This document shows, one piece after another, positions 1 through 25,338 of a stretch of 32,000 nt of DNA (the stretch's first letter is position 1; each line of letters opens with the position of its first letter). The notes beneath the pieces were generated by a model. The model was not told where the DNA came from, ran no database searches, and was given only the letters and a program-made list of their open reading frames with translations. Made by a program: the position numbers and the translations under genes. This stretch comes from Nitratidesulfovibrio vulgaris str. Hildenborough. Lineage in GTDB: Bacteria > Desulfobacterota > Desulfovibrionia > Desulfovibrionales > Desulfovibrionaceae. Location: NCBI RefSeq assembly GCF_000195755.1, contig NC_005863.1:1-32000 (forward strand), in the 5' to 3' direction.

Positions 1-649
1 CACAGCGGTGTGCCCCGCCGTCCCACCCTGTCGACCTGCCCTTACATGGGTTTGTGCTTTCATGATAGGCGGTTGTCCGATTTCACAGTGAACCACAGCG
101 CATGGTGTCTGTTCACGGCATGGCGCATCATGCCCAGACGCGCATGACGCGCCGGATTCACTCGCCCGCGGTGACCGCGCGAATGGCGTGCCTGCCAGCC
201 ACTCCTGTGAGGCGGCATCGGCAGCAGGCACAAGCGGCCCCCATGTCTCCGCCGTGTTGTGCGGGCATCCTGTAACAAGCTTGGAGGGCGATGGTCTGCG
301 GCACGATCCCAGCCGCGGCCTGGGAAGGGGCATCGGAGGGGCGTCGGCGCGCTGTACCGTGGCGATTTACAGAGACATCTCGGGCTGGCTGTCCGCCGAT
401 GAGCGAAGGTCCGCCGGCGACCCGTCAGCCACTCAAGGGTACTTCGCCCGGCGGGCATTCGGCACATCGGCCAGTCTCCCGGCTTGCAGGCACTTCGGCC
501 CGCCGGCTAGCCCCGGGCTGACTCGCCCACATGGGCACCGAGCCCTTCGCCAGCGCGAGGGCACGACCCGCCCGCCATCCGGGTACGGCTCCCCCTGTGA
601 CACCCCACCGGCAGCCTGCCCGCGCGGGATGATCGCTTCGGGAATCTAG
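1..649. other. GC-rich stretch with no credible coding frame; function unknown
   Basis: Only short overlapping ORFs (60-467 minus, 188-649 plus, 291-521 plus), with Arg/Pro/Gly/Ala-rich junk-like translations and no recognisable motifs. Contains imperfect hairpins, e.g. GTGAAC-N17-GTTCAC near 87-115 and GGCGCATCATG...CATGACGCGCC near 121-152. Confidence 0.3.
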
Positions 650-870
650 AAAATTTATAACCTGTCAAGAGGCGACAACTTTTACATTTTCTTCATGTTT
701 ACAGGACGTTGCAAGCGAAACACCCCTCCAATACGACGTCGTTCAGCGCAAACCGCAAGCGAATTCGTCTAAAAAAATGTTGATGGACAGAGTTTTTTTT
801 GATTAACCTGCTCGCATAACGCGAACGCCAAGCGTTACCTACATCTTTCCCGCAGAAGGGGGCCCGAAAC
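650..870 (+). promoter_or_regulatory. AT-rich parA upstream region with candidate operator repeats
   Basis: Sharp drop in GC directly upstream of parA. Direct repeats GCAAGCGAA at 711-719 and 756-764. Inverted repeat TAACGC-N9-GCGTTA at 817-837. Shine-Dalgarno AAGGGGG just before the ATG at 871. No promoter hexamers confidently assigned. Confidence 0.4.
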
Positions 871-1689
871 ATGGGTGCGATCATCGCCATCGTCAACAAC
901 AAAGGTGGGGTGGGCAAGACCACCATCACCACCAACCTTGCCCACGCGCTGGCAAACCTGCAACAGGAAGTGCTGGTCATCGACGCCGACTCGCAGTGCA
1001 ACACGAGTTCGTTCTTCTTTCACGGCGACGTCGAGCGCGTACCCGCACCCAACCTGTACGAATTGCTCGAAGACGACGCCGCGGACGTGCGCGACTGCAT
1101 CCACGCCGCGCCCGAATATTCGCGTATCGCCGTGCTGCCCACGCACCCCGACCTCGCCGGGCTGGAACCCGTCATCATCCAGCGTCCCGACACGGGCATA
1201 CGGCTCATGCGCGACAAGCTGCGCGACTATGCCAAGACCAAGTACGACTTCACGCTCATCGACTGCCCGCCCAACCTCGGCACCTTCGTCATGATGGCCA
1301 TGGTGGCGGCAGACTTCGTGCTGGTCCCGCTGGAAAGCGGCAGCAAATACTCCATCGACGGCATCGCCCGCACAGTGGGTCTCATCGACGACATCCGCTC
1401 CGAGGGCCAGAACAAGGACCTCACCCTGCTGCGCTTCCTGCTCAACAAGGCGCGGCCCCGCACCATCGTCGCCCGCGAGACACACGAGCGCCTGCGAGAA
1501 CGCTTCCCCGGTCGCGTGTTCGAGACCGTGCTTTCGGCCTCCACCGACCTGCAACAGAGCGAATACCTCAGCGAGACCGTCATTCGCAGCAAACCCAACA
1601 GCCAGCTTGCACGCCTGTTCCGCCAGCTGGCCAACGAGGTCGTGTCCCTGAAGGAGATAACCACCATGCAGGACGCGCCCTCTGCCTAG
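871..1689 (+). CDS. parA: ParA/Soj-family partition ATPase (deviant Walker A)
   Basis: N-terminus MGAIIAIVNNKGGVGKTTITTNLA is the KGGxGKT deviant Walker A. Also has the DxD-type motif VLVIDADSQ and Walker B FTLIDCPP. 272 aa with a good SD. Confidence 0.95.
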   Translation: MGAIIAIVNNKGGVGKTTITTNLAHALANLQQEVLVIDADSQCNTSSFFFHGDVERVPAPNLYELLEDDAADVRDCIHAAPEYSRIAVLPTHPDLAGLEPVIIQRPDTGIRLMRDKLRDYAKTKYDFTLIDCPPNLGTFVMMAMVAADFVLVPLESGSKYSIDGIARTVGLIDDIRSEGQNKDLTLLRFLLNKARPRTIVARETHERLRERFPGRVFETVLSASTDLQQSEYLSETVIRSKPNSQLARLFRQLANEVVSLKEITTMQDAPSA

Positions 1690-1739
1690 CCGACTAGACT
1701 TCCCTACCCTGCCCCCACCACGGGCGTGGAGGAACCGAT

Positions 1740-4700
1740 ATGCCCCCTGAAGCGACAGCCAACGCAAGCCCTGCCGGGCAACAACCGAAACGCAGGCGCG
1801 TTACGCTGGCAGACAGATTGCGTCAGGCCAGCAAGATGCAGTTCGAGTCGCCGGAACAGATTGCGGCCCGTGAAGCGCTGGAGAAGATGAACCGTGAGTC
1901 GGCACTGGCGACACCCGGTGACACCGACAGTCACGGGGTGTCTTCTGCTGTCACGCCTGACAAACCGACGACACACCAACACAAGGCCGTTGCCGAATCC
2001 GCGAAGGACGCCCCTTCGCCCCCCACCGTGACCAGCCCTTCCCCTGCCATAGAGGACGACCTCGGGCATGACACGTCGGCGGCCACGTCGGCGCGGGCAA
2101 GCACCGGTGAAGACGCCACCTGCGCCGCTTCTGGCACCACTCCCCGTGATGACGATGCCGGTCACCCCCTGACTGGCGCCGTCACCCGTGACGTCACCAC
2201 CCCAGAGACGCGTACTGTCACCCATGACACACCAGTCACCCCCGTGACAACAAAAGCCACGGGTGACTGCGATAGACACCCCGCGACAACAGCTGTCACC
2301 AGTGACACGGACTCCGAAACAGTGACCGCGACGGACACCAGTGACGCAAAACGTCACCCCGTGTCACCTGCGGCCACAGATGCCTCCAACAGTCACCCAG
2401 TGACGGCAGACGTCACCCCTGACGTCACCCCTGACAGCAACGCTCACCGGACGACAATGGCCGTCACTGGTGACAGCACGGTCACCCCCGACGGAGAACT
2501 CCCGGCTTCTTCAGCATCGACCCGCGAGCCCAAGACCGTGAGCAGCGCTGCCGACAGGGCATACACCGCCCCCCACGCCAGCCGGGGGAGGGACGCCGGA
2601 GACGACACCGGTCACCCCATGACAGACACCGTCACCAGTGACGGTACGTCACCCCCTCCTCCCCTATTCGTGCCCGCACATGGCCCACTGACGCACGGGG
2701 CGGTCGCGGCTACGGACACGGCAGGGGCAGCGACGGTCGAAGAAGGCCCTGCACACGACGTGCAGCCCATGCGGCAGGCTGAGGCATCGTCTGCGCCCCA
2801 TGCGTCGCGCGAAGCGCCCACAGGCACGGCGTACGCGGGCACAGAGGCAGGAAGTGCACACGGGCACGACCGCAGCACCGCGGGCCTTGCGACGACCGCA
2901 GAGGAAACGCCCTGCACGCCATGCGAAGCGCCAACCCCCGAGACGGCAGCCACACTGCATGACCGTTCCGCTGTGAACGCTCGCGCCATGGGGACGGAAA
3001 AGGTCACGGGGACAGAGAGAGTCACCCCTGACCCAACCGGTCACCCCGTGACCGCGGCAATCACCGTACGGCACGATGAAGGCCCCCTCCCCGGAGCTGA
3101 GACTCCGGGGGTATCTGGAGCAGAATCACCCCATGTGACGCCCCATGTGACGCCCCGAGTGACGCCCCGAGTGACGCCGGATGCGACGCAGGATGCGACG
3201 CCGGAGGCCTCTGGCAGTACATTGCCGGGTGCGACATCCGACCTGACGGGGGGCCTGACCGGGGGCCCGTCCGTGACAGCAGCGGGCGCAGAAGCAGACG
3301 CGGGCACAGAGACCGGCGCGCCGTATGCGCGGGCTGCCGCCTCCAAGGACCAGTCGGATGCGACACGCCCCGGAGATGACATCGCACCGTCACATGCCGC
3401 ACGGCAGGCAGCGGGTATCAGCGACGGCGCAACCACCGTCTCCGACGTCACCCCCCTGTCAGCCCACGACACGATGTCTTCTTTCGTCACGGATGACAGC
3501 CACGGTCACCCCATGACGGACAACGTCACCACTACCGAGCCTACCGTCCATCAGGCCATGGCCCATGGGATGGCTCCGGTGGTGAATAGCCCGAAGCCAG
3601 AGGGCGGTGTGCATGTGCGCAGCCCCCTCCCCGCCCACGACCTTGCCGGGCACATGGGGCACAGTGCCGAGCAAGCCCCCCAGACAGGGAACGTCACGGA
3701 TGACGCATCACGTCACGGGGTGTCGGCAGAAGTCACCCCTGACATGTCCGCCACGGCCCCAGTCACCCCAGTCACCCCAGTCATCCCAGTCAGGCCGGGC
3801 ACTCCGGGCCCGCTTGCAGGGCTGACCACATCGCGCACGCTTCTCAACAGCACCTTGCAGGTCAACATCTATAATATGGTGCTTGAGGCGGGCGGGGCCG
3901 TGTTCACCTCGGGCGGGCAGATGGCCAAGCGCTTCGACGTGGCCGTGCGTTCGGTGCGCCGTACCCTCGACCTCATGGAGACCAAGGGCATCCTCAGCCG
4001 CGAATCGGGGGCGGCGGGCATGACGCTGCGTCTGCTCATGGACCCCCTTTCGGTGATGGGCATCCATGCCAGCGGTCTGCCCGCAGGTGTCATCGGCGCG
4101 GTGCATGACGCCGGGGCAGTCCATGACGGCATCATGGGCGGGCACGCCCCATACCGGACGGGAAGAGGTCCGGACATGCCCACGTTCCCGTCGGGTTCGC
4201 CGGCGGCACACACGCCCGAATTTGTGGCAGGGCACGGCACGGGCGCGGAGGGCAGGGGAGGGTATCCCGCAGCGGGGATGCCGCAGCCCCATGCCCCGCA
4301 CCCTTCGCCGTCACCCCGTGACAGCTATGGTCACCCCTCGTTCATGCACGCCGCACCCCATCCGGTACAGACCTCCCCGCACCTGAACGACCAGCAGGGC
4401 AGGGCGGCGAACCCCGGCGACATGGTCGCGCCGCACAGGCCTGCCGCTGCCCATCAGATGCACGGCGGCATGGTGCCACGGCATCAGCCCGGGGCGACAC
4501 AGACGGGGCAGGCAGCGAGCGTGTCAGGTGCTGGCACACCGGGCACCACGGCGGGAGACGCCTTCGGAGTGCCGTCCGGCGGCCCCGGGGCGGACATGGC
4601 GTTCTTCCGCGAACGCTATCCCCATCTCGCCCGTGCGGGCTTCGGCCCGGCACAGGTGAAGCAGGTGCGTGAGGCACTGGCATCACGCGACCTGCCCGAC

Positions 4701-5135
4701 GACCTCGTGGAAGAGTCGCTCGGCTATGCCGAATGGGAACTCGAGCATGGCACCATGGTCGACGCCAAGGGACAGCCCATCGCCAAGCCCGCCGACTGGG
4801 TCTTCAAGTCGCTTGCCATGCACGGCTGCTACAGGCGGCCCGCCGGATACGTCGACCCGCTGGAAGAGGCCCGGGCGCGCATCGCCGAACGCATCGCCGC
4901 ACAGACGGCCCACCGCGAACAACTGGCGCGCCTGCGTGAAGAGCAGGAGAAGCTTGAGATGGAAGCCCTCATCGACGCGGAGGTTGAACGGCTTGCCGCA
5001 GCCCCCGACAGCGCAGAGGTGGACGAACTGTTGCAAGGGCTGCCCGCCGTGCTGCGCGCCAAGGGGCTTGAGAGCGCACTGGTACAGCGCGAGATGCGTC
5101 GCCGCCTGCGCGAACGTCTCTTCCCGGAGGGGTGA
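1740..5135 (+). CDS. Large (1131 aa) repeat-rich protein with a central MarR/GntR-like winged-helix segment and a C-terminal coiled coil; candidate centromere- or origin-binding partner of ParA
   Basis: SD GGAGGA lies 6 nt before the ATG, 50 nt after the parA stop. Basic N-terminal peptide QQPKRRRVTLADRLRQ. About 650 aa of V/T/P/D/H-rich low complexity with recurring GHP(V/M/L)T-xx-VT. wHTH-like segment QMAKRFDVAVRSVRRTLDLMETKGILSRE (nt ~3840-3990). P/H/G-rich linker. Ordered C-terminal domain (nt ~4600-5135) ending in an E/R/L-rich coiled coil. No ParB box seen. Whether the whole low-complexity part is translated is unproven. Confidence 0.7.
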   Translation: MPPEATANASPAGQQPKRRRVTLADRLRQASKMQFESPEQIAAREALEKMNRESALATPGDTDSHGVSSAVTPDKPTTHQHKAVAESAKDAPSPPTVTSPSPAIEDDLGHDTSAATSARASTGEDATCAASGTTPRDDDAGHPLTGAVTRDVTTPETRTVTHDTPVTPVTTKATGDCDRHPATTAVTSDTDSETVTATDTSDAKRHPVSPAATDASNSHPVTADVTPDVTPDSNAHRTTMAVTGDSTVTPDGELPASSASTREPKTVSSAADRAYTAPHASRGRDAGDDTGHPMTDTVTSDGTSPPPPLFVPAHGPLTHGAVAATDTAGAATVEEGPAHDVQPMRQAEASSAPHASREAPTGTAYAGTEAGSAHGHDRSTAGLATTAEETPCTPCEAPTPETAATLHDRSAVNARAMGTEKVTGTERVTPDPTGHPVTAAITVRHDEGPLPGAETPGVSGAESPHVTPHVTPRVTPRVTPDATQDATPEASGSTLPGATSDLTGGLTGGPSVTAAGAEADAGTETGAPYARAAASKDQSDATRPGDDIAPSHAARQAAGISDGATTVSDVTPLSAHDTMSSFVTDDSHGHPMTDNVTTTEPTVHQAMAHGMAPVVNSPKPEGGVHVRSPLPAHDLAGHMGHSAEQAPQTGNVTDDASRHGVSAEVTPDMSATAPVTPVTPVIPVRPGTPGPLAGLTTSRTLLNSTLQVNIYNMVLEAGGAVFTSGGQMAKRFDVAVRSVRRTLDLMETKGILSRESGAAGMTLRLLMDPLSVMGIHASGLPAGVIGAVHDAGAVHDGIMGGHAPYRTGRGPDMPTFPSGSPAAHTPEFVAGHGTGAEGRGGYPAAGMPQPHAPHPSPSPRDSYGHPSFMHAAPHPVQTSPHLNDQQGRAANPGDMVAPHRPAAAHQMHGGMVPRHQPGATQTGQAASVSGAGTPGTTAGDAFGVPSGGPGADMAFFRERYPHLARAGFGPAQVKQVREALASRDLPDDLVEESLGYAEWELEHGTMVDAKGQPIAKPADWVFKSLAMHGCYRRPAGYVDPLEEARARIAERIAAQTAHREQLARLREEQEKLEMEALIDAEVERLAAAPDSAEVDELLQGLPAVLRAKGLESALVQREMRRRLRERLFPEG
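1925..4340. repeat. Dense array of GTCAC/GTGAC-based motifs embedded in the large ORF, including 8 copies of a ~26-bp composite unit
   Basis: Composite GTCACCCC(N)TGAC-N7-GTCACC at 2161-2186, 2392-2417, 2611-2636, 3040-3065, 3505-3530, 3712-3737 and 4310-4335, plus a compact variant at 2353-2368. Also 12-bp tandem repeats (GTGACGCCCC-NN) at 3133-3200 and 9-bp tandem repeats (CAGTCACCC) at 3761-3795. Confidence 0.85.
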
Positions 5136-5180
5136 TGCGAGGGACGCGGGATGCCGGTGCCATGAGGGGTGGCAGACAGG

Positions 5181-5432
5181 ATGACAGGCAGGGTGACACC
5201 GTCGGTCACGGGGTGACAGACCAAGGATGACAGCGAGGGACACGGGGTGGTGACAGGTCACCTGACACGGGGCGACACCCCATGACAATCCGCCCCTCGA
5301 AACGTCACCGGTGACAGGACAGGGCCCGTGACGCGACACGTCCCCCATGACAGCGCATGTCGCGAGGTGACATGTGGAGCATCTGAAACAAAAACAATGG
5401 GTTGGGTACAAGCCCGTGACATGGGCGGTCAC
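5181..5432. repeat. Non-coding iteron-like array of GTGAC/GTCAC pentamers; candidate centromere or origin iterons
   Basis: Strict GTGAC or GTCAC at 5193, 5205, 5213, 5250, 5257, 5304, 5311, 5328, 5366, 5416 and 5428, plus ATGAC/CTGAC/GCGAC variants. Inverted copy of the 26-bp composite unit at 5192-5217. Palindromes GTCACGGGGTGAC (5205-5217) and GTCACCGGTGAC (5304-5315). My rough base-composition estimate is under 1 strict pentamer expected by chance in 250 nt. Confidence 0.6.
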
Positions 5433-5451
5433 CCCCCTCTTATATAAGGAA

Positions 5452-5479
5452 GATAGATAGAAAGAAGAGTCTATCTATC
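5452..5479. promoter_or_regulatory. Perfect 9-bp inverted repeat in an AT-rich patch just upstream of the HU-like gene; candidate operator or DNA-unwinding-adjacent element
   Basis: GATAGATAG (5452-5460), N10, CTATCTATC (5471-5479). Preceded by TATATAAGGAAG. The HU-like ATG is at 5490. Confidence 0.4.
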
Positions 5480-5489
5480 GCAGGAACAC

Positions 5490-5843
5490 ATGGAAAAGAC
5501 GAGCAAGCCGCAACTGGTGGCCTACCTGCGGGAAAGGGCACACCTCACGGAAGAGCAGGCGCTGATGACGCTCAAGGCCTTGTATCTCTTCTCGCTGGAG
5601 CATCTTGAGAAGGGCGTGGGCGTGGTGCTGCCCGACATCGGGCAAATCAAGCCATCCATGGGCAAGGGCGGGGTAGGGCGCAACTTCCGCACCGGAGAGG
5701 CGACGGTCATCGAACCCAAGCTCAAGCTCACGTTCAGTGCGTCCAAGGCACTGAAGGAACCGCTGGACGCGGCGCAGCGCAAGGCCGCGAAACAGCGCGA
5801 CGCGAAGTCGCAGGACGGCGCGACGGGCGACGGACGGGCGTAG
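5490..5843 (+). CDS. HU/IHF-family nucleoid-associated DNA-binding protein with a basic C-terminal tail
   Basis: 117 aa. The beta-arm signature GRNFRTGEATVIEPKLKLTFSASKALKE matches the GRNPxTGE...I pattern of HU/IHF proteins. N-terminal helical segment KPQLVAYLRERAHLTEEQA. Confidence 0.85.
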   Translation: MEKTSKPQLVAYLRERAHLTEEQALMTLKALYLFSLEHLEKGVGVVLPDIGQIKPSMGKGGVGRNFRTGEATVIEPKLKLTFSASKALKEPLDAAQRKAAKQRDAKSQDGATGDGRA

Positions 5844-6497
5844 CCACGACCGGACGGCTGGCTGCCGCCAGACATGGTGAGGCCCGGGTGCGCACGCGGG
5901 GCACGATGCCCGACACACGCAAGCCCGGTCATGCCTCCTCCCATGAAGCCCCGGAGGGGCATCGGCCCGAAGCCTCGCAGGTGAATATCAAGGTCACCCC
6001 CGATGCTTCGCGAGGTGACCCCGGCAGAGGGCGACCCGGTGGTGAAGACGTCCGGCCGGGGCGTGATGGTGGCGGTACGACGAAGGGTGATGACGCCCGG
6101 AAGAGGTTACCGGCGAGAAGGGCACGGATTACCGTCTTCCAGGCAGATGTCGCCCCTGCCGCACGGTCGCAGGGGCGGAAGCGGCAGACGTTGCGGGAAG
6201 GCGTACCTTCCGCCGCAAGACCGGAGAGGCTGGACCTCCATCGTCCGCCAGTCGCCACGCCGTGAGGTGTGGGCCGACCATGGGCACAGGCCTTGCGTTG
6301 CCGGAGGGCAGGGTCGCCTGTCTGCGGTGCTTCTGCCCGGGCAGACCGCGTGGCGCGCGAACCTGCGAAGCATGGGGTTCGCAGGTCCGCGGAGGGATGT
6401 TCCGGAGGGAAGCCGCTGACACGGGCGGCAGGGGGCTTATGCCCCGCGGCCCCGTCGATAGGGCGGGCCATGCCGCATCAGCCGGGGTCTGCTCGGG

Positions 6498-7418
6498 TCA
6501 GGGCCGCGCCGTCTTGCGTCTGACGACGAGTGTGCTGTGCCCGCTGCCACGCAGGATGTGTTCGGCGGTGCTCTTGAACAGCAGCCGCTGCAACACTCCG
6601 TGGTCATGCATGCCGACGATGGTGAGGTCGGCGCTGCACCCCTCTGCCGTCCCCATGATGGAGGCGGGCACGACGCCCCGTGGCAGGTGCGACCTGACGG
6701 TGACAGGGGCATCGCCATCCCTCTCCATGATGGCGGAAAGCCTTGCAAGGGCGTTATGAAGGTGCCCGCCGTGCCGCGAATACTCGTGCGCGGCGTGCGT
6801 GTTCGCCTCCTTCCGGGCGACGCCGCTCTTGGATGTGATCTTCATCCGGGCGAACACATCCCACGCATGCACCACGTGAAGCGTCGCGCTGTGACGTGTG
6901 GCGATGCCGTATGCGGCTTCGAGGATAGCCTCGTTGAGGCTCCTGTCCGAAGGCGAGTCGATGACGTCGTCACAGCCGATGGCCGCTACGATGTTGCGGA
7001 GGCTGTTCGTACCCTGCTTCAGGACGAGCACGTCGCCCTGCGCGCCATGGACGAAGTTCATGAATGTCTTCGTCTGGATGGGGTTCGCGAAGAGGTTCGC
7101 GTGGTGGTCGACGATGGTGAGGTCGTGTTGCCCCGGGCGCTGTGCAGACAGCCGGGAGAGCGTATCGGCACCGTCGGTCACGATGACGTCGTGACCTGCA
7201 CCGCAGCCCGTATCGTGGCCCTTGCCACGCCATGCCGGGGCCTCGGCGCGCCGCGCATCGGCCTCGCACGCCTGTTCCATGTCACGCCGGAGGGCGTCGT
7301 CGCACAGTATGGTGAGCGGTGCACCGAGTCTTCGCGCGAAGTCGATGGCGAAGAGGGCCCTGTGCCTGTCCGTGCCGGGGCCGGTCGCCCCGTAGAGTAT
7401 CCTGTCGTAGCAGCGCAT
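6498..7418 (-). CDS. Tandem-domain universal stress protein (UspA family)
   Basis: Two Usp-like halves. The C-terminal signature DLTIVGMHDHGVLQRLLFKSTAEHILRGSGHSTLVV matches the G-x2-G-x9-G(S/T) Usp ATP-binding pattern. ORF is open to GTG 7433, but SD GGAGG is best spaced for the ATG at 7418. Confidence 0.85.
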   Translation of the reverse strand: MRCYDRILYGATGPGTDRHRALFAIDFARRLGAPLTILCDDALRRDMEQACEADARRAEAPAWRGKGHDTGCGAGHDVIVTDGADTLSRLSAQRPGQHDLTIVDHHANLFANPIQTKTFMNFVHGAQGDVLVLKQGTNSLRNIVAAIGCDDVIDSPSDRSLNEAILEAAYGIATRHSATLHVVHAWDVFARMKITSKSGVARKEANTHAAHEYSRHGGHLHNALARLSAIMERDGDAPVTVRSHLPRGVVPASIMGTAEGCSADLTIVGMHDHGVLQRLLFKSTAEHILRGSGHSTLVVRRKTARP

Positions 7419-7455
7419 GCGCATCCTCCACACGCGAATGGGGTCGTGAATCAGG

Positions 7456-8451
7456 TCAGGTGCCGATGACGAACGTCGCCATGCCGAAGTAGATGAGGAT
7501 GGTGGAGATGTCGGACAGCGCCAGCGTGAGGGGGCCCGATGCGATGCGCATGTCCAGCTTCAGCTTGTGCAGCAGGGAAGGGATGCTGAGCCCCCAGAAG
7601 ACCCCGCAGCACAGCGTCAGCAGGATGCTCGAACCGATGACCGCCGATGCGGCGACATCGTCCCGCCACAGGACGACGATGCTGCCCACGATGAGCCAGC
7701 ACGCCGCCCCCAGAAGCACGGCGGAGCCCACTTCGCGGTAGAACGACTTCACATACCATTTCCAGTCCGGGTCGAGGGACCGCAGCGTGTGGATGGCGAG
7801 CGTCATGGACTGGATGCTCACACTCTCTCCGAGGCCCAGCACGAGGGTCATGAAGAAGGCCAGCACGAGACTCTGCGCCAGCGTCGCCTCATAGGCCCCC
7901 GCAAGGATGGCGCAGGTCGTGCCGCTGGCGATGGTGGCGAGAAGCCACGGGAATCGGTAGCGGAAGGCGCGCAGGGGCGAGGCCTCGCGCACCTGCAGGA
8001 TGCTGAGGCCGATGATCTCGAAGGCCCTGTGCATGTTCTCGCGGTCGGTGGCGTCGATGTCCTCTTTCGAGAACATGCCGATGTCCACCACACCGAGGAT
8101 GCGCCTCTCGTCATCCACCACGGGAAAGGCGAGCAACTTGTGGCGCGTGAAGTACTCATGCGCGTCGAGGACGCTGCAATCCATGGGGATTGCGATGGTC
8201 GAGGTGATCATGATGTCGTCGACCGTCTTCGTGTCGTCCGAGGTCAGAAGGCGTCTGATGGGAATGACGCCTGTCAGCCTGTCGTCGCAGTCGACGATGT
8301 AGAAGTAGTCGATGCGGTTCTCATCATCAGTCGATGACTTGATGTCGTGAAGTGCCTCTTTGATCGTCGTGCCCGAGACGAACTTCTTCACGTCTGTACG
8401 GGCGAGTCGCATGATGGATTCCTTGAAGAATCTGTTCTTCTTGCGTGGCAT
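7456..8451 (-). CDS. MgtE-like divalent cation transporter (CBS pair plus MgtE membrane domain; no MgtE N-domain)
   Basis: CBS-pair-like region (IKEALHDIK...YFYIVDCDDRLTGVIPIRRLL, ...LLAFPVVDDERRILGVVD) followed by the MgtE-type TM domain FRYRFPWLLATIASGTTCAILAGAYE...LVLGLGESVSIQS. SD GGAGGA lies upstream of the ATG at 8451; the longer ORF to 8535 lacks an SD. Confidence 0.85.
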   Translation of the reverse strand: MPRKKNRFFKESIMRLARTDVKKFVSGTTIKEALHDIKSSTDDENRIDYFYIVDCDDRLTGVIPIRRLLTSDDTKTVDDIMITSTIAIPMDCSVLDAHEYFTRHKLLAFPVVDDERRILGVVDIGMFSKEDIDATDRENMHRAFEIIGLSILQVREASPLRAFRYRFPWLLATIASGTTCAILAGAYEATLAQSLVLAFFMTLVLGLGESVSIQSMTLAIHTLRSLDPDWKWYVKSFYREVGSAVLLGAACWLIVGSIVVLWRDDVAASAVIGSSILLTLCCGVFWGLSIPSLLHKLKLDMRIASGPLTLALSDISTILIYFGMATFVIGT

Positions 8452-10457: not shown

Positions 10458-11972
10458 CTACATGTAGCCGTAGCCCACGGGGCTGGCGGTCTGATGGCGT
10501 TCGATGAGGGCGTTGACGATGCGGTCGTACAGGGCGAGTGCGCCGGTGTAGCCCACATGCAGCAGACGCTGCCCGCCGAAGCGGTCGTGGACGGGGAAGC
10601 CCGTGCGCACCAGCGGGATGCCCCACGCGCGGGCGTAGCGGTAGCCCTTGCTGTTGCCCACCAGCAGGTCGGGGGCGAGGGTGCCCGCACGTTCGGCAAT
10701 CTCGTGGAAGTCGACCCCTTCGCGGACTTCGGGCAGGTCGGGCATCAGCCCCCCGCAGACGGCGGCCACACGCGCGGCAAGGCCGCACCCGCGTGCGCCG
10801 GTGGCCACCAGCACGGGGCGTATGCCCGTCTCGGCAAGCATGGCGCACAGCCCCGTGACCATGTCGGCATCACCGTAGACCACGGCCCGCTTGCCCGCGA
10901 CGTACTTGTGCCCGTCCACGAGGGCGTCGACCAGCCTGCCGCGTTCAAGCATCATGCGCGGGGGCATGGCGGTGCCGGAGATGCGTTCGAGGGCCTCCAT
11001 GAAGGTGTCGGTCTCGCGCAGGCCCACGGGCACGCCCACCCTGAACAACGGCACGCCGTGACGCGCGTGCAGCGCGGCCCCGGCGGAGGGGCGGCTGCCG
11101 AGGGGGTCGCCCATCTCGACCACGGCCCGCGCACGGCCCAGCGCCCGGATGTCGTCGAGGGGCGTACCCCCGGCGGGGATGGGCGCGTAGGCTTCGAGGC
11201 ACGGGGCGTCCAGCGTCTCGGAGATGTCGGGCAGGATGACCGGCGCAAGGCCGAATGCCTCCATCACGTCGCGCAGGTGGCGTATGTCGGCGGGGGAGAG
11301 TAGCCCCGGCAGCAGACAGGTGCGGCCCGTGGAGACGGTGCCCGACGTGGTGCCGGATATCGCACCGGGCGTGGTGTCCGACACGGTGGCACCGGCGGTG
11401 GCAGGGCCGCGTGCGGCTGCGCCGGGGGCCGCTTCGTGAGGGGCACCCGATATGACACCGGACATGGTGCCGGACATGGTGCCGGACATGGCACCGGGCG
11501 TGGACTCCACCAGTTGTTCCGTCACGGCACGCACGGCGTCGTACCAGCCGTCCATGTGGGTTCCGGCGAAGCTTGGCGTGCTCACATGCACGATGTCCGG
11601 CAGGTCGAGGTCGCCGAATTCGTTACGGAACTCGCGCAGGATGCGGCCCACGTCGTCACCGATGGTCTCGGTGAGGCAGGTGGTGGCCACGCCCACGAGA
11701 CGCGGGTGGTACTTCTTCATGACATTGAGCAGCCCCTTCTTGAGGTTGGGGCCGCCGCCGTGGATGGCGTGCTTCTCGCCCAGTGCGGAAGAGGCGATGT
11801 CCATGGGTTCGCGGTAGTGGCTGATGACGTAGCGACGCATGTAGGTGGCGCAGCCCTGCGAACCGTGCAGGAAGGGCACGGCCCCTTCGATGCCCCTGAA
11901 GGCCAGCGTCGCGCCGAGGGGCGTGCAGAGTTTGCATGCGTTGGTGGTGGCGATGTGGTTACGGCCTGCCAT
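10458..11972 (-). CDS. nifN: NifN, FeMo-cofactor scaffold subunit
   Basis: NACKLCTPLGATLAFRGIEGAVPFLHGSQGCATYMRRY is the typical NifN N-terminus. I prefer the start at ATG 11972 (G-rich SD, 14-nt overlap with the nifE stop). The ORF stays open to 12236 through the 27-bp repeat, which would add MPTVPKGTD-type repeats. An internal MSGT-rich insertion sits at nt ~11320-11510. Confidence 0.9.
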   Translation of the reverse strand: MAGRNHIATTNACKLCTPLGATLAFRGIEGAVPFLHGSQGCATYMRRYVISHYREPMDIASSALGEKHAIHGGGPNLKKGLLNVMKKYHPRLVGVATTCLTETIGDDVGRILREFRNEFGDLDLPDIVHVSTPSFAGTHMDGWYDAVRAVTEQLVESTPGAMSGTMSGTMSGVISGAPHEAAPGAAARGPATAGATVSDTTPGAISGTTSGTVSTGRTCLLPGLLSPADIRHLRDVMEAFGLAPVILPDISETLDAPCLEAYAPIPAGGTPLDDIRALGRARAVVEMGDPLGSRPSAGAALHARHGVPLFRVGVPVGLRETDTFMEALERISGTAMPPRMMLERGRLVDALVDGHKYVAGKRAVVYGDADMVTGLCAMLAETGIRPVLVATGARGCGLAARVAAVCGGLMPDLPEVREGVDFHEIAERAGTLAPDLLVGNSKGYRYARAWGIPLVRTGFPVHDRFGGQRLLHVGYTGALALYDRIVNALIERHQTASPVGYGYM

Positions 11973-13845
11973 GGTGTGCCCCCCCTTCGGTGGCGTTTCC
12001 TTCGGTGAAAAGGTCGTGCGGGGCGTGTCCTGCGGGATTGGCGGGACAGTCGGCATCTCCATCCCCTGCGGGATTGGCGGGATGTCCGTCCCTTTCGTGT
12101 GCGGGGGCGTCTGCGCCGAGGTGTCTGTCCGCACGGTCTGCGGGATTGTCGGCTTGTCCGTCCCCTTCGGGACAGTTGGCATGTCCGTCCCTTTCGGGAC
12201 AGTCGGCATCTTCATCCCCTGCGGGACAGTTGGCATGTCCGTCCCCTTCGGGACGGGCAGCCGCCGGGAAACGGCTGCGCGGCGTGAAACGCCACACCGG
12301 GCTGGTGACGGAGGCGTGTACCTCGCGGGCGAAGTTGTACATGCCCTCGAAGCCCGCCAGCGCGATCTTGCGTTCGTGGTTGTGGTCGCAGAAGCCGATG
12401 CCCAGCTTGTGGGCGATGGGCCTCTCCTTCACGCCGCCCACGAAGATGTCCACGTCGAGGGTGCGGACGAAGTGCGCCAGTTCAAGGGCGTTGGCGTCGT
12501 CCACGATGATGGTGCCGGGGTCGCAGATGGCTTCGAGTTCGCGGTAGTCCTCGTCGGTGCCGGTCTGCGAACCCACCAGTGCCACCTGCATCCCCAGATG
12601 CCTGAACGCCTTGATGAGCGAGAACGCCTTGAACGCGCCGCCCACGTAGATGGCGGCCCGCTTGCCTTCGAGGTCGCGCCGCAGCTGGCGCAGCCGGGGC
12701 ATGAGGGTGGCTATCTCCTCGCGCACGAGGTCGCGGGTGCGTTCGACGATGCCGGGGCACACCTCGCGGAAGTGTTCGGCGACGTTGTAGAGCGAGTCTG
12801 CCATGTCCTCGATGCCGAGGTACGAGACGCGCAGCGTGGGCGTGCCGTAGGCTTCGCGCATCATGCGTGCCAGCGGCATGGTGGCACCGCTGCACTGCAC
12901 GAGGTTGAGCGCAGCCCCGTGGCATCGGCGCAGGTCGTCCACGCGCCCGTCGCCGGTGATGTTGGCGACCACCTGCACCCCCATGCGTTCGAGGTAGCCG
13001 CGGATGATCCACAGTTCACCGGCGAGGTTGAAGTCGCCGAGGATGTTGACCGAGGCGGGACCTATGCCGTCTGTCGCGCCCGTGCCGGTGAGGGTGAACA
13101 TGGCGGCGCAGGCCGCTTCGTACCCTTCGCGCTTGTTGCCCTTGAAGCCCTCTGACTGCACGGGCAGCACGGGGATGCCGTGGCGTGCCGCGACGCGCTT
13201 GCACACCGCGCCGATGTCGTCGCCGATGAGACCCACGATGCAGGTGGCGTAGACGAAGGCTGCCTTGGGCGCGTGGCGGGTGATGAGTTCATCGAGGGCC
13301 GCTTCCAGCTTGGGTTCGCCGCCGAAGATGATGTCGCGTTCGCCAAGGTCGGTCGAGAAGCTCAGCCTGTGCAGTTCAGGGCCGGACGAGAGTGCACCGC
13401 GGATGTCCCAAGTGTAGGCGGCGCAGCCCACCGGCCCGTGGACGAGGTGCAGCGCGTCGGCGATGGGGTAGAGCACCACGCGCGAACCGCAGAACACGCA
13501 GGCACGCTGGCTGACCGCCCCGGCGAGACTCTCGCGGTTGCAGGCGAGGTCGATGGGGCCTTGCCCCGCCCGGTGTACCTGCCCGCGACGTTCTTCGAGC
13601 AGCCCGTCGGAAGCAGGGGCAGGCGGGGTGGCAGGCGGGGTGGCAGGCGGGGTGGCTGGTGCCATGGCGGGCGCAGGGGCGGCAGCTGCCTCGGCAGAGA
13701 CCTTGCCCCTTGTCACGCCTGCTGCCGCGCCTGCTGCCATGCCCGCTGTCGTACCGGCTGCCGGCGCTGCTACGGGGTGAAGAGTGCCGTCCGTCCTGTC
13801 TGTGGACCCTTCGGGAGTGGGCATGACGCCGCAGTGTCCGTTCAT
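11959..13845 (-). CDS. nifE: NifE, FeMo-cofactor scaffold subunit, with low-complexity N-terminal extension and a Cys/His/Asp-rich repeat tail
   Basis: Core CVFCGSRVVLYPIADALHLVHGPVGCAAYTWDIRG and downstream oxidoreductase/nitrogenase component-1 blocks. Preferred start is ATG 13845 with SD AAGGAAGG; the ORF is open to 14217 but that extension looks non-coding. The stop at 11959 means the tail encoded by the 27-bp repeats is in frame. Confidence 0.9.
   Translation of the reverse strand: MNGHCGVMPTPEGSTDRTDGTLHPVAAPAAGTTAGMAAGAAAGVTRGKVSAEAAAAPAPAMAPATPPATPPATPPAPASDGLLEERRGQVHRAGQGPIDLACNRESLAGAVSQRACVFCGSRVVLYPIADALHLVHGPVGCAAYTWDIRGALSSGPELHRLSFSTDLGERDIIFGGEPKLEAALDELITRHAPKAAFVYATCIVGLIGDDIGAVCKRVAARHGIPVLPVQSEGFKGNKREGYEAACAAMFTLTGTGATDGIGPASVNILGDFNLAGELWIIRGYLERMGVQVVANITGDGRVDDLRRCHGAALNLVQCSGATMPLARMMREAYGTPTLRVSYLGIEDMADSLYNVAEHFREVCPGIVERTRDLVREEIATLMPRLRQLRRDLEGKRAAIYVGGAFKAFSLIKAFRHLGMQVALVGSQTGTDEDYRELEAICDPGTIIVDDANALELAHFVRTLDVDIFVGGVKERPIAHKLGIGFCDHNHERKIALAGFEGMYNFAREVHASVTSPVWRFTPRSRFPAAARPEGDGHANCPAGDEDADCPERDGHANCPEGDGQADNPADRADRHLGADAPAHERDGHPANPAGDGDADCPANPAGHAPHDLFTEGNATEGGAHHGRP
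12029..12260. repeat. 27-bp tandem repeat array at the nifE/nifN junction
   Basis: Three clean units GGGACAGTTGGCATGTCCGTCCC(C/T)TTC at 12169-12195, 12196-12222 and 12223-12249, with degenerate copies back to ~12029. Two minus-strand frames are open across it. Confidence 0.9.
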
Positions 13846-14179: not shown

Positions 14180-14228
14180 GCGGCGTGGCGTGCGGCAGTC
14201 GCCTGGGGCGGGGTCACGGAATCAGCTC

Positions 14229-14291
14229 GAATCCGCCCGGATGTTCCCGGAATCCGTCCGGATGTTCCCCGAATCCGTCCGGATGAGGTCC
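14229..14291. repeat. Three 21-bp tandem direct repeats immediately downstream of the ferredoxin gene
   Basis: GAATCCG(C/T)CCGGATGTTCCC(G/C) at 14229-14249 and 14250-14270, with a diverged third copy at 14271-14291. Confidence 0.85.
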
Positions 14292-18594: not shown

Positions 18595-18876
18595 GTCCGT
18601 GTCCTCCTGTGCGGATGGGGGCAGATAGTGGGCGGATGGTGGGGGATGGTGGCCTGATGGTAGCGGGTGCGGCTTGCCTGTCCGCCTGCCCGCCTGCCCG
18701 GTTGTCCAGTCTGTCCGCCTGCCCGGTTGTCCCGTGTCCCGTCGTCCTGTTATCCCGTTGCCCGGTATGGCCTGTCGGGGCTGTCCCGTGACGCGGGTGA
18801 CGCGGATGCCGTGGATGATACGGGCGACGCGGATGTCGCGGGTGACACCGGTGCCGCCACCTTGCATCGGGCCGCG
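18595..18876. repeat. 282-nt repeat-rich spacer between nifH and nifI1
   Basis: Direct repeats GTCCGCCTGCCCGGTTGTCC (two copies within ~18680-18735). GACGCGG and GTGAC motifs at 18788-18846. On the sense (minus) strand it carries many GGG runs. Confidence 0.8.
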
Positions 18877-21988: not shown

Positions 21989-22207
21989 TCAGGCGTCGGG
22001 CGCGAAATACGGCAGGGTCAGGCTTTCGCCATCCCATGCAGGAGGAAACGCGTTCATGCGTTCGCGCGCCCTTATCCCCAGCAGGGCAAGGTCGCCCGGT
22101 GTGCGAGGCTTGCGACGAACGCCTGAAAGCTTCTTGCCCGCCAGAAAGCGTTCTTTGCGAACCTCTCTGGCAGCGTCGGCAAATGTGGTGAAGTCATAGG
22201 TGCTCAT
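21989..22207 (-). CDS. Hypothetical small protein (72 aa)
   Basis: ORF MSTYDFTTFADAAREVRKERFLAGKK...; no motif recognised. Start chosen at the ATG at 22207. Coding status is uncertain. Sits at the edge of the low-GC island. Confidence 0.35.
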   Translation of the reverse strand: MSTYDFTTFADAAREVRKERFLAGKKLSGVRRKPRTPGDLALLGIRARERMNAFPPAWDGESLTLPYFAPDA

Positions 22208-22629
22208 GACGACCTCAGGGTACGGGGCTTGACCTGCTGGGTTTCTTCGGGTGATTAAAACTTGGCTGGTGATCGGGCCATGTGCCATTGTTCTTGGAGT
22301 GGTTTTGTTTCGTAGTGAAAGCCAAGGTCGTTATCGAAGGCGGGCGCAGACCCTACATTGAGGTGTAACCCTGCTCAGGCTTGGATAAGTCCCACCCCGC
22401 AAGGCATTGCGGCCGAGAACGGCTAGAATCTTGACCGGAGGGCACTCTCGATAGTGGCATGGTCAGAAGAAACTCGAGAGATCAAGGATAAATCCTCCTT
22501 GTTGGTTAAGTACTAGTATTGTTCGGCCAATAAAATACGTTGCAAGTATTCGGCAAGGCGATGGGGGTGGTTTCTGTTCGGTTTCCCTGCTGGCTATATC
22601 CCACTTGTTGCGTTGATTTTTCATAAAAC

Positions 22630-25184: not shown

Positions 25185-25338
25185 TACATATGTTCCACCT
25201 GTAGTTATTAAAGAAAGCAACATGAAAAATTGGTGTGCTGGTTTCAAATCTGTGAAGTGATTGATTGTCATAACTCCCGTAACGACTGATACTTCGGCCT
25301 GAACGGTGACCTCTTTGCCCAGCCGGGGCTGGCGCATC

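What the first reader, a model, noticed from the sequence alone, without database searches (positions are those of the whole stretch)
2161..5217. A ~26-bp composite DNA motif recurs nine times, in two reading frames and both orientations, inside and after the parA-adjacent giant ORF
The unit GTCACCCC(G/A/C)TGAC-N7-GTCACC has a fixed 7-nt spacer. Copies:
- 2161-2186, 2392-2417, 2611-2636, 3040-3065, 3505-3530, 3712-3737 (GGGG variant) and 4310-4335, all inside the ORF
- a compact variant at 2353-2368
- an inverted copy in non-coding DNA at 5192-5217

At 3039 the core is read GGT CAC CCC GTG ACC (GHPVT). At 4308 the same core is read CCG TCA CCC CGT GAC (PSPRD), a different frame of the same ORF. 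Conservation across frames, orientation and the coding boundary points to selection on the DNA rather than on the peptide. The core GTCAC-CCC-GTGAC is itself a palindrome, as expected for a site bound by a dimer. Protein-binding sites embedded in the gene next to parA recall parS sites inside parB, but neither this motif nor this protein looks like any par family I can name.
Basis: seen in the sequence. Interest (0 to 1): 0.85.

Follow-up and report, generated by a model that had tools for sequence, protein, structure and literature searches.

The report
Protein-binding DNA array inside its gene
On a Desulfovibrio vulgaris megaplasmid, the giant gene next to parA carries an array of DNA binding sites written through its own coding sequence in several reading frames, and relatives on other plasmids do the same with different DNA words, which points to an undescribed plasmid-segregation (possibly also replication) protein family.

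Summary
The window is the parA region of the Nitratidesulfovibrio vulgaris megaplasmid (pDV1/pDEVAL01 type).

- **Motif count and location.** The 26-bp unit occurs 10 times at up to 2 mismatches, against 0 in shuffles. All 10 plasmid-wide matches (up to 1 mismatch) to the 13-bp palindrome GTCACCCCGTGAC lie in 3.75 kb of the 202 kb.
- **Selection on DNA.** Synonymous-codon permutation does not reproduce the motif (GTCACCCC 17 observed, 2.9 expected; 0 of 1000 permutations reach it). Between strains the repeat region evolves almost neutrally (pN/pS 0.72). The motif bases barely change: 1–2 of 227, against 61–64 of about 1625 elsewhere.
- **The protein family.** The ORF has a conserved basic N-terminal peptide, a repeat-laden low-complexity region, a winged helix, and a C-terminal domain with no Pfam or PDB match.
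- **Relatives.** In 13 of 13 relatives of this class the gene directly follows parA. Ten of 12 such genes carry their own DNA word, often at a 13-bp period and read in all three frames.

Best reading: these are sites for the protein's own winged helix and act as a centromere. An origin or iteron role, or both roles together, is not excluded. No binding has been shown.

The parts
871..1689 (+). parA: a 272-aa Walker-type ParA ATPase with no N-terminal HTH (type Ib size).
   Evidence: Pfam AAA_31 6.8e-41, CbiA, ParA; NCBIfam ParA_partition 6.4e-33 (114 bits, below its 180-bit curated cut-off). Annotated 'ParA family protein' in three plasmid records.
1740..5135 (+). ORF X, 1131 aa (WP_011176581, annotated 'hypothetical protein'). 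It is the candidate DNA-binding partner of ParA.
   Evidence: The frame is open for 1131 codons. All strain indels are in frame (1131, 1125 and 1115 aa). GGAGGA lies 8 nt upstream of the ATG. No Pfam family matches.
1779..1889 (+). Conserved basic N-terminal peptide (QQPKRRRVTLADRLRQA...AAREALEKM). It is a candidate ParA-contacting or ParA-stimulating peptide.
   Evidence: It aligns with the N-termini of relatives (KRKSLRSLLQDA, RRRGLNELMESV, KKRKTMAELLAA and others). No substitution occurs among the three alleles. It is present in all 13 parA-linked members examined and absent from the relaxase- or AlpA-linked members.
1900..3800 (+). Low-complexity coding region (about 630 codons) carrying the site array. 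GTSAC words are read as VT, xH, xD or S depending on the frame.
   Evidence: GC by codon position is flat at 0.68/0.63/0.69, against GC3 of 0.86 in parA. GTSAC frame counts over the whole ORF are 30, 17 and 4; the peptide sequence predicts 28, 5.1 and 0.9. pN/pS is 0.72 here, against 0.11-0.26 in the C-terminal half. Motif bases show 1-2 substitutions in 227, against 61-64 in about 1625 elsewhere (Fisher p = 0.003 and 0.019).
1917..1942 (-). Composite unit, inverted orientation, inside the ORF.
   Evidence: 1 mismatch.
2161..2186 (+). Composite unit (peptide GHPLTGAVTRD).
2275..2300 (+). Composite unit, degenerate (peptide RHPATTAVTSD).
   Evidence: 2 mismatches.
2392..2417 (+). Composite unit (peptide SHPVTADVTPD).
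2611..2636 (+). Composite unit (peptide GHPMTDTVTSD).
3040..3065 (+). Composite unit (peptide GHPVTAAITVR).
3129..3205 (+). In-frame 12-bp tandem array (CCCCATGTGACG, about 5 copies; peptide HVTPHVTPRVTPRVTPD). Copy number differs between strains.
   Evidence: A 12-aa deletion is present at this place in the L2 and DP4 alleles.
3505..3530 (+). Composite unit (peptide GHPMTDNVTTT).
3699..3724 (-). Composite unit, inverted.
3852..4055 (+). Winged helix-turn-helix domain (aa 705-772).
   Evidence: AlphaFold2 pLDDT 96-98 with H-E-H-H-E-E topology. Foldseek best hits are MarR/ArsR/CodY-type winged helices, including the pNOB8 centromere binder AspA; E-values are about 1e-2. The family profile matches MarR-type regulators in the PDB at 3e-4.
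4310..4335 (+). Composite unit in the linker after the winged helix, read in a different frame (PSPRDSYGHPS).
4584..5120 (+). Conserved C-terminal domain (FFRERYPxLxxAGFG...YAEWELEHG...YRRPxGY) followed by a 48-residue helix. This domain defines the family.
   Evidence: 227 cluster representatives match with E<=1e-3. AlphaFold2 mean pLDDT is 94.5. No PDB or BFVD structure matches at E<1. No Pfam match.
5167..5440 (.). Non-coding part of the array: 11 GTSAC words in both orientations, including the perfect inverted composite unit at 5192-5217.
   Evidence: No substitution in 55 motif bases, against 9 in 299 other bases, compared with strain L2.
5428..5480 (.). Conserved element GTCACCCCCC-TCTTATATAAG-GAAGATAGATAGA-N8-TCTATCTATC, immediately upstream of the HU gene. 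Its function is open: hup promoter and operator, or part of an origin.
   Evidence: The same element is present in L011, L013, L014 and L016, and in diverged form in L015. It contains a 10-bp perfect inverted repeat.
5490..5843 (+). HU/IHF-like gene (DVUA0004). It is a conserved downstream neighbour of X in 6 of the parA-X loci.
   Evidence: Pfam Bac_DNA_binding 5.4e-17. Synteny. PMC3897727 discusses DVUA0004 as a proposed IHF-alpha-like gene.

Best explanation
The motif is an array of binding sites for the winged-helix domain of the protein encoded by the same gene (ORF X). X is the DNA-binding partner of the upstream ParA ATPase, so the array acts as the plasmid's centromere.

**Proposed mechanism**
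1. X dimers bind the 13-bp palindromes GTCAC-N3-GTGAC. Dimerisation is probably through the long C-terminal helix.
2. The palindromes sit about two helical turns apart, across roughly 3.5 kb of the gene body and the 350-bp downstream spacer.
3. The conserved basic N-terminal peptide, held on a long flexible tether, contacts ParA.
4. ParA then segregates the coated plasmid.

**Why the sites can sit in coding DNA.** They lie in the part of the gene that encodes low-complexity linkers, which probably tolerate almost any amino-acid sequence. The DNA word therefore dictates the peptide repeats (VT, GH, xD, S), not the reverse.

**Shown here**
- Selection acts on the DNA word.
- The word is confined to this locus.
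- The same arrangement recurs across the family, with a different word in each lineage.
- The gene is strictly linked to parA.

**Inferred, not shown**
- That X is the binder.
- That the N-terminal peptide acts on ParA.
- That the array is a centromere.
- That the repeat region is disordered (judged from composition only; it was not modelled).

The same sites may additionally serve replication; this cannot be excluded.
For: **DNA-level selection**
- Synonymous-codon permutation gives 0 of 1000 reaching the observed counts.
- An unbiased top-7-mer test is positive in 10 of 12 X genes (0 of 300 permutations in nine, 3 of 300 in one). It is negative in all 11 parA controls.
- Motif bases are conserved between alleles while the peptide drifts.

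**Locus specificity**
- All 10 plasmid-wide hits to the 13-mer lie in the ORF plus its downstream spacer.

**Each relative has its own word, in the gene and usually also in the spacer after it**
- L011: TGTCCGGGGT at a 13-bp period in frames 0, 1 and 2. The array runs across the stop codon.
- L013: GGACACTAGTGTCC. L014: AAAGTCA/GTGACA.
- L022 and L023: CAACAGAC at a 13-bp period, read as NRQ, QQT and PTD.
- pDMC2: GTGTCCAAA. pDRET01: ACCGCTCA at 13- and 26-bp spacings in both orientations. pDMC1: GCAGACA.

**Word tracks recognition helix.** Proteins with similar recognition helices share words, for example P0007 and P0012, or P0019, P0020 and pDMC1. Shared ancestry confounds this.

**Link to ParA**
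- parA lies immediately upstream of X in all 13 class-A relatives examined, with gaps of 1-15 nt; in the window the gap is 50 nt.
- The basic N-terminal peptide is present in exactly these members. It is absent from the relatives that lack parA.

**Protein features and translation**
- The winged helix is modelled at pLDDT above 95.
- The ORF is truly translated: the conserved N-terminal peptide lies upstream of the repeats, all indels are in frame, and 690 codons run without a stop.
Against: - No binding, stabilisation or ATPase data exist.
- The resemblance of the N-terminal peptide to ParB-type ParA-stimulating peptides rests on general knowledge and was not tested.
- No replication initiator is annotated anywhere on pDEVAL01, pDRET01 or pDMC2, nor in the first 9 kb of pDMC1.
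- The cumulative GC skew of the 202-kb plasmid turns exactly at the X/HU spacer.
- About a quarter of family members have a winged helix that matches phage 'replication initiation O-like' or 'DnaD-like loader' families.
- Relatives without parA sit after AlpA and before relaxases in integrated elements.

The last four points are what an initiator with iterons would also predict.

- pDRET01 carries two ordinary parA-parG pairs in addition to parA-X.
- Only three closely related alleles were available for the substitution test.
Confidence: 0.55

Rival explanations
1. X is the plasmid's replication initiator and the words are iterons. The origin lies in and just after the initiator's own gene, as in phage lambda O with ori-lambda, or in plasmids whose oriV lies inside rep. 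ParA is merely co-transcribed, or uses X only incidentally.
For: - The GC-skew minimum is at the X/HU spacer and the maximum at 116 kb, roughly opposite.
- No Rep gene is annotated on three complete plasmids carrying parA-X, nor in the first 9 kb of pDMC1.
- In lower-GC relatives, AT-rich stretches lie between site arrays in the spacer.
- An HU/IHF-like gene is conserved next to the spacer.
- The winged helices of about 15 of 70 members match PHROG replication-initiator or DnaD-like families, with best E-values of 2e-9 and 5e-10.
- The domain order (DNA-binding winged helix, linker, conserved C-terminal domain) resembles lambda O (general knowledge).
- Origins inside initiator genes are documented (PMC3155836).
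Against: - The gene directly downstream of a type I parA is, as a rule, the centromere-binding protein.
- If X were only an initiator, none of the parA-X loci examined would have a centromere-binding protein next to parA.
- The N-terminal basic peptide tracks the presence of parA.
- Tandem 13-bp periods are typical of centromere arrays rather than of 17-22-bp iterons (general knowledge).
- No DnaA box is present.
- There is no homology to Rep_3, RepA_N or the phage O Pfam families.
- The PLSDB gene tables are incomplete, so absence of an annotated Rep is weak evidence.
Confidence: 0.2
2. The array is bound by a different protein, for example the neighbouring HU/IHF-like protein or a regulator encoded elsewhere. 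X is unrelated to the sites that its gene happens to host.
For: - HU is a conserved neighbour in 6 loci.
- Binding by X is not demonstrated.
Against: - The word changes from lineage to lineage together with X, while HU is absent from half of the loci (pDMC1, pDMC2, pDRET01, L013, L022, L023, L033), which still carry in-gene arrays.
- HU-family proteins are not known for reading 13-bp palindromes (general knowledge).
- No IHF consensus site is present.
- On the 8.9-kb plasmid pDMC2 the word is almost confined to the X gene.
Confidence: 0.07
3. There is no DNA-binding function. The pattern is a peptide repeat, or a neutrally expanding minisatellite, in a disordered-coding region of a repeat-prone replicon.
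For: - The window holds many other short tandem repeats with periods of 9-27 bp.
- Some in-gene arrays have 9- or 12-bp units that are in frame and vary in copy number between strains.
- VT dipeptides alone explain the frame-0 GTSAC count (28 expected, 30 observed).
Against: - Counts in frames 1 and 2 are 3-4 times the peptide-based expectation.
- Unit spacings of 20 and 13 bp are not multiples of three.
- Inverted copies and non-coding copies exist.
- Spacers are unrelated in sequence while the word is kept.
- The word is conserved between alleles while the peptide is not.
- The same phenomenon, with different words, appears in 10 of 12 related genes and in none of 11 parA controls.
Confidence: 0.03

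Closest known systems
parS inside the gene of its own binding protein (Bacillus subtilis spo0J; Streptomyces SCP2 parT)
   Same: A centromere site lies within the coding sequence of the ParA partner that binds it. For SCP2, ChIP-seq placed an 18-bp inverted-repeat parS inside parT (bioRxiv 10.1101/2024.05.08.592561; PMC12260392).
   Different: Those cases are single sites in ParB-fold proteins. Here there are dozens of sites over 2-3.5 kb, read in two or three frames, which shape the protein's own repeat peptides. The protein has no ParB or ParT domain.
Origins inside initiator genes: phage lambda O with ori-lambda; pAD1 RepA and other RepA_N plasmids; repC of repABC
   Same: Binding sites or the origin are embedded in the poorly conserved linker-coding part of the gene for the protein that acts on them. 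PMC3155836 lists pAD1, pSX267, pAMbeta1, pLS32, pSK1, pSK41 and repC. The lambda O case is from general knowledge. The domain order (winged helix, linker, C-terminal domain) is similar, and some family members match PHROG 'O-like' families.
   Different: There is no sequence-family membership. X is strictly coupled to parA and carries an N-terminal basic peptide. No DnaA boxes are present. Replication has not been tested.
Centromere arrays of short tandem repeats bound by small winged-helix or RHH proteins (TubR-tubC, ParR-parC, ParG-parH, pNOB8 AspA)
   Same: Short repeats (10-13 bp period) in direct and inverted blocks are coated by a dimeric DNA-binding adaptor. AspA appears among the Foldseek hits for the winged helix.
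   Different: Those adaptors are small, and their arrays are intergenic. X is 370-1131 aa with a C-terminal domain that has no structural match. Much of its array is coding.
Canonical type Ia/Ib ParB and ParG partners of ParA
   Same: X occupies the operon position directly after a Walker-type parA. It has an N-terminal basic peptide on a flexible tether and a DNA-binding domain, and repeated sites lie nearby.
   Different: X has no ParB_N/CTPase domain, no ParB HTH and no RHH fold.

Membership tests
Type I (Walker ParA) plasmid partition system | A Walker-type ParA ATPase gene is present. | tested here: met
   Pfam AAA_31/CbiA/ParA; NCBIfam ParA_partition 6.4e-33 (114 bits, below its 180-bit cut-off).
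Type I (Walker ParA) plasmid partition system | The gene for a DNA-binding partner lies directly downstream in the same operon. | tested here: met
   X follows parA by 50 nt in the window. It follows by 1-15 nt in all 13 class-A relatives examined. The winged helix is modelled at pLDDT above 95.
Type I (Walker ParA) plasmid partition system | A cis-acting array of repeated sites lies next to the operon. | tested here: met
   for the window. for the relatives.
Type I (Walker ParA) plasmid partition system | The partner binds the sites, stimulates ParA, and the cassette stabilises a plasmid. | not testable with these tools
   Needs EMSA or ChIP, ATPase assays and stability assays. The only indirect support is the conserved N-terminal peptide that co-occurs with parA.
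ParB/Spo0J (ParB_N CTPase + HTH) family | A ParB_N / sulfiredoxin-like domain and a ParB-type HTH are present. | tested here: not met
   No Pfam or NCBIfam hit for X. None among the 70 family members scanned.
RHH centromere binders (ParG, omega, ParR) | A ribbon-helix-helix DNA-binding fold is present. | tested here: not met
   The model shows a winged helix, not an RHH.
Iteron-type theta replicon (Rep_3 / RepA / TrfA / pi) | The initiator is homologous to Rep_3-type proteins or has a WH1-WH2 pair. | tested here: not met
   No Pfam hit. There is only one winged helix, plus an unrelated helical C-terminal domain.
Iteron-type theta replicon (Rep_3 / RepA / TrfA / pi) | Iterons lie beside an AT-rich unwinding element and DnaA boxes, and a strand-composition switch occurs at the locus. 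| tested here: inconclusive
   The GC-skew turning point is at the X/HU spacer. AT-rich stretches lie between arrays in relatives. No DnaA box is found at up to 1 mismatch.
Phage lambda O-like / DnaD-like initiators | Sequence membership in the O-like or DnaD-like families. | tested here: inconclusive
   The window protein has no PHROG hit. Among 70 relatives, 4 hit 'O-like' and 7 hit 'DnaD-like loader', through the winged helix only. The C-terminal domain has no match.
RepA_N replicons (oriV inside repA) | A RepA_N domain is present. | tested here: not met
   No Pfam hit. Only the architecture is analogous (sites in the variable part of the gene).

The most novel reading that the evidence does not exclude
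X is a single protein that is both the replication initiator and the ParA-coupled segregation adaptor of these Desulfovibrionales plasmids. Its gene body plus the downstream spacer would then serve as origin and centromere at once. In that case a parA-X(-HU) cassette is a complete minimal replicon of a new type, in which a 13-bp site code is written through all three reading frames of the gene for the protein that reads it.
Probability: 0.2. Interest if true: 0.9.

Novelty: new variant of a known kind. Interest (0 to 1): 0.72.

Why it matters
**A candidate new family of ParA partners.**
- The family (winged helix plus a C-terminal domain with no structural match) has at least 227 sequence clusters.
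- All members with a source name are annotated only as 'hypothetical' or 'HTH domain' proteins.
- It is the only maintenance candidate next to parA on the D. vulgaris megaplasmid.
- That plasmid carries nif, type III secretion and CRISPR genes, is easily lost in culture, and has no described replicon.

**An unusually clean natural case of dual coding.**
- A protein-binding DNA code at 13- or 20-bp periods is overlaid on an open reading frame.
- The DNA word visibly writes the peptide repeats in all three frames.

**Directly testable.**
- Recode the gene synonymously and measure stability.
- Swap words between plasmids to test specificity and incompatibility.

**Practical use.** A defined parA-X-array cassette could give stable vectors for sulfate reducers.

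Tried and rejected
- **Family searches for X.** Pfam, NCBIfam and PHROGs found nothing above threshold. The only NCBIfam match was a weak one to the PhnF winged helix (E 0.08).
- **Word-indexed protein searches.** Two searches returned almost nothing, probably because the low-complexity words swamp the index. The exhaustive representative search was what found the family.
- **C-terminal domain.** A PDB profile search and Foldseek (PDB and BFVD) gave no match at E<1.
- **RNA families.** Rfam on 600-6100 gave no hit.
- **Promoters and terminators.** The scan gave nothing useful. Its two 'promoters' are themselves motif copies.
- **DnaA box and IHF consensus.** Neither is present.
- **Missing DNA.** None was available for the P0007 contig.
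- **Is the 5' 2 kb non-coding, with the real gene starting near 3800?** I considered this because GC3 is flat there. I rejected it for three reasons: the conserved N-terminal peptide lies upstream of the repeats, 690 codons stay open, and all allele indels are in frame.
- **Is GTSAC a plasmid-wide or restriction-type word?** Rejected: the extended site is confined to this locus.
- **Recognition helix versus word.** The comparison could only be done by eye for half of the proteins. Shared ancestry confounds it, so it is weak support only.
- **Literature.** Searches found nothing on DVUA0003, on this family, or on multi-frame centromere arrays.

Full report
**What the window is.**
- Bases 800-5900 are 100% identical to Nitratidesulfovibrio (Desulfovibrio) vulgaris RCH1 plasmid pDEVAL01. 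They are 97-98% identical to the plasmids of strains DP4 and L2.
- The local gene order is HTH-hipA, parA (871-1689), a 1131-aa 'hypothetical protein' that I call X (1740-5135), a 354-bp spacer, then an HU/IHF-like gene (5490-5843).
- The RCH1 and DP4 records start inside that spacer.

**Checking the observation.**
- The composite unit GTCACCCCVTGAC-N7-GTCACC occurs 10 times at up to 2 mismatches. Dinucleotide shuffles give none.
- Seven copies are on the plus strand inside the ORF, two are inverted inside the ORF, and one is inverted in the spacer.
- Aligning the copies shows that the unit is longer than reported: TGAC-N7-GTCACCCCRTGAC-N7-GTCACC-NN-TGAC. That is a series of 13-bp palindromes GTCAC-N3-GTGAC about 20 bp apart. 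Because 20 is not a multiple of three, neighbouring half-sites are read in different frames.
- Fifteen such palindromes (up to 2 mismatches) lie in 1700-5500, against 1.8 expected.
- On the complete 202,305-bp plasmid, all 10 matches to GTCACCCCGTGAC (up to 1 mismatch) fall in the 3.75 kb of X plus the spacer.

**Is it the DNA or the peptide?** Three tests agree.
1. *Codon permutation.* I permuted synonymous codons among positions with the same amino acid, which keeps the protein and the codon usage.

| Feature | Expected | Observed |
|---|---|---|
| GTCACC | 6.9 | 25 |
| GTCACCCC | 2.9 | 17 |
| Composite units | 1.15 | 9 |
| GTSAC, frame 0 | 28 | 30 |
| GTSAC, frame 1 | 5.1 | 17 |
| GTSAC, frame 2 | 0.9 | 4 |

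   None of 1000 permutations reaches the observed values for the first three rows. VT dipeptides explain the frame-0 count; the other two frames are far above expectation.
2. *Allele comparison.* Among the three strain alleles, the repeat region (codons 54-690) evolves at pN/pS 0.72 and pS 0.044. The C-terminal half evolves at pN/pS 0.11-0.26. Yet bases inside GTSAC words show 1 and 2 substitutions in 227, against 64 and 61 in about 1625 other bases of the same region (Fisher p = 0.003 and 0.019). In the spacer the figures are 0 of 55 against 9 of 299. The words were defined on the window sequence, so this test is, if anything, conservative.
3. *Where the word occurs.* It appears inverted and in non-coding DNA.

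**Is the ORF real?**
- Codon-position GC is flat over 1740-3800 (0.68/0.63/0.69, against GC3 of 0.86 in parA). I therefore asked whether this part is translated at all.
- It is. The frame stays open for about 690 codons at 64% GC.
- All indels among alleles are in frame.
- A conserved N-terminal peptide lies upstream of the repeats and aligns with the N-termini of relatives.
- The flat profile fits a sequence constrained by DNA sites rather than by codon usage.

**The protein.**
- No Pfam or NCBIfam family matches.
- AlphaFold2 with 70 relatives gives four parts. First, a winged helix (aa 705-772, pLDDT 96-98). Second, a stretch with pLDDT mostly below 60, probably disordered. Third, a compact helical domain. 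Fourth, a 48-residue helix.
- Foldseek matches only the winged helix, to the MarR/ArsR/CodY type, including the pNOB8 centromere binder AspA at E about 0.03.
- The C-terminal domain (mean pLDDT 94.5) has no PDB or viral match at E<1.

**Relatives.**
- An exhaustive search with aa 690-1131 found 227 cluster representatives, typically 350-450 aa, sharing the C-terminal domain (YAEWELEHG...YRRPxGY).
- Every member for which a source gave a name is called 'hypothetical' or 'HTH domain-containing'.
- The family splits by N-terminus.
  - *Class A* has a basic peptide: (K/R)2-4-(T/S/G)-(L/M)-x-(D/E)-x-L, or MALSLxxKLxQAA.
  - *Class B* has a C-x-(Y/L)-A-C motif.
- All 13 class-A relatives I could place sit 1-15 nt downstream of a roughly 260-aa parA. 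An HU gene follows in five of them, as it does in the window.
- Class B members lack parA. They sit after an AlpA-like gene and before a MobA/VirD2 relaxase in integrated elements.

**The key result: the phenomenon is a family trait, with a different DNA word each time.**

| Locus | Word | Arrangement |
|---|---|---|
| L011 | TGTCCGGGGT | 13-bp period; read MSG/VRG/CPG in frames 0, 1, 2; array continues across the stop codon into the spacer, then reverses orientation |
| L013 | GGACACTAGTGTCC | in the gene and the spacer |
| L014 | AAAGTCA/GTGACA | in the gene and the spacer |
| L022, L023 | CAACAGAC | 13-bp period; read NRQ/QQT/PTD; in L022 one copy just upstream of parA |
| pDMC1 | GCAGACA | in the gene |
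| pDMC2 (8.9 kb, complete) | GTGTCCAAA | 8 copies in both orientations inside X; only about three elsewhere |
| pDRET01 | ACCGCTCA | 12 copies at 13- and 26-bp spacings, direct then inverted, all inside X |

- I also ran a test with no pre-chosen motif: the count of the most frequent 7-mer against 300 synonymous permutations.
- It is positive in 10 of 12 X genes (0 of 300 in nine, 3 of 300 in one). It is negative in all 11 parA controls.
- The two negative X genes (L015, L016) have their arrays in the spacer only.
- Proteins with similar recognition helices share words, and dissimilar ones do not.

**Mechanism.**
- The best-supported reading is that X binds its own word through the winged helix and links the coated DNA to ParA through the tethered N-terminal peptide. 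The array is then a centromere.
- The sites can sit in coding DNA because those segments encode low-complexity linkers, which probably tolerate any sequence. This explains the near-neutral pN/pS and the growth of the linker to about 630 codons in D. vulgaris.
- Strain differences include gain and loss of 9- and 12-bp units. The array therefore changes by slippage, with only in-frame changes surviving.

**The main rival.**
- An initiator-and-iteron reading cannot be dismissed.
- The plasmid's cumulative GC skew has its minimum at the X/HU spacer and its maximum at 116 kb.
- No Rep or ParB is annotated on pDEVAL01, pDRET01 or pDMC2, nor in the first 9 kb of pDMC1. PLSDB gene tables are incomplete, so this is weak evidence.
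- About a quarter of family members have winged helices matching phage 'O-like' or 'DnaD-like' replication families.
- Class B members sit where replication or mobilisation accessory genes usually sit.
- Origins inside initiator genes are a known arrangement (PMC3155836; lambda O from general knowledge).
- Against a pure initiator: the strict coupling to parA, the N-terminal peptide that tracks parA, the 13-bp tandem periods, and the lack of DnaA boxes.
- A dual role is the most novel reading left open.

**Comparison with known systems.**
- The arrangement works like a type I partition cassette, but X is not a ParB, ParG or ParR family member; the defining domains were tested and not found.
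- A parS inside the gene of its own binder is known, but as a single site (SCP2 parT).
- Dozens of sites written through several frames, shaping the protein's own repeats and recurring across a family with lineage-specific words, were not found in the literature searched.

**Verdict.**
- I rate this a new variant of a known kind, in a protein family with no prior description.
- Limits: no binding or function has been shown. The allele test uses three close strains. The disorder of the repeat region is inferred from composition. The ParA-peptide analogy rests on general knowledge.

Noticed in passing
window 5428-5480; also L011 about 3306-3345, and the last 60-90 bp before the HU gene in L013, L014, L015 and L016: A conserved element lies just upstream of the HU/IHF-like gene: a site copy, then CCCC-TTATA(W), then GAAGATAGATAGA-N8-10-TCTATCTATC. 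The window has a 10-bp perfect inverted repeat at 5452-5479. The element is kept across loci whose GC content ranges from 49% to 65%. It could be the hup promoter plus operator, or part of an origin.
   Followed up: partly
L004 about 1440-1590 (JGI metagenome contig, D. vulgaris-like): In this contig X is split by a frameshift in the linker between the winged helix and the C-terminal domain, so it is called as two genes (528 and 263 aa). This may be an assembly error or a real disruption.
   Followed up: no
window 3129-3205 and 3757-3792: In-frame tandem arrays of 12 bp (CCCCATGTGACG, about 5 copies) and 9 bp (CCCCAGTCA, 4 copies) differ in copy number between strains RCH1, L2 and DP4. All the indels are in frame.
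   Followed up: partly
window 26310-26363 and 26494-26517; also 11442-11497, 12151-12254, 13618-13673, 14228-14285, 18611-18857: The window holds many other short tandem repeats (periods 9-27 bp) outside X. One example is CCGGTGACGTGC (4.5 copies) plus a second pair 180 bp away, in the spacer between the CAAX-protease-like and RND-adaptor genes. These may be regulator sites. They contain GTGAC but not the extended palindrome.
   Followed up: no
window about 22000-25200: A low-GC island (45-50%, against 64% overall) corresponds to an Eco57I-like methylase and a PaeR7I-like restriction endonuclease. It is probably a horizontally acquired restriction-modification module.
   Followed up: no
L005 5593-5800; L007, L008 and L032; N-termini of many class B proteins: Relatives without parA share an N-terminal C-x-(Y/L)-A-C motif and lie between an AlpA-like gene and a MobA/VirD2 relaxase in integrated elements. 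L005 also has CA(G/A)CCTG words at a 12-bp period in its 5' coding part. Their role (relaxosome accessory or initiator) is unknown.
   Followed up: partly
L029 (pDRET01) 661-888, 2835-5123 and 6987-7847: This 45-kb plasmid carries parA-X together with a canonical parA-parG pair and a further lone parG gene, so it has more than one candidate segregation system.
   Followed up: no
L027 (pDMC2, 8.9 kb) 3057-5169: This small plasmid encodes two DnaB_C-like helicase-domain proteins and a HARE-HTH/GIY-YIG protein, but no recognisable initiator. It would be a compact test bed for asking whether X also initiates replication.
   Followed up: partly
window 590-610: A single related word (TGTGACACCCCAC) lies about 260 bp upstream of parA, just before the AT-rich promoter region. 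In L022 and pDMC1 one copy of the local word lies just upstream of parA. This would fit autoregulation.
   Followed up: no
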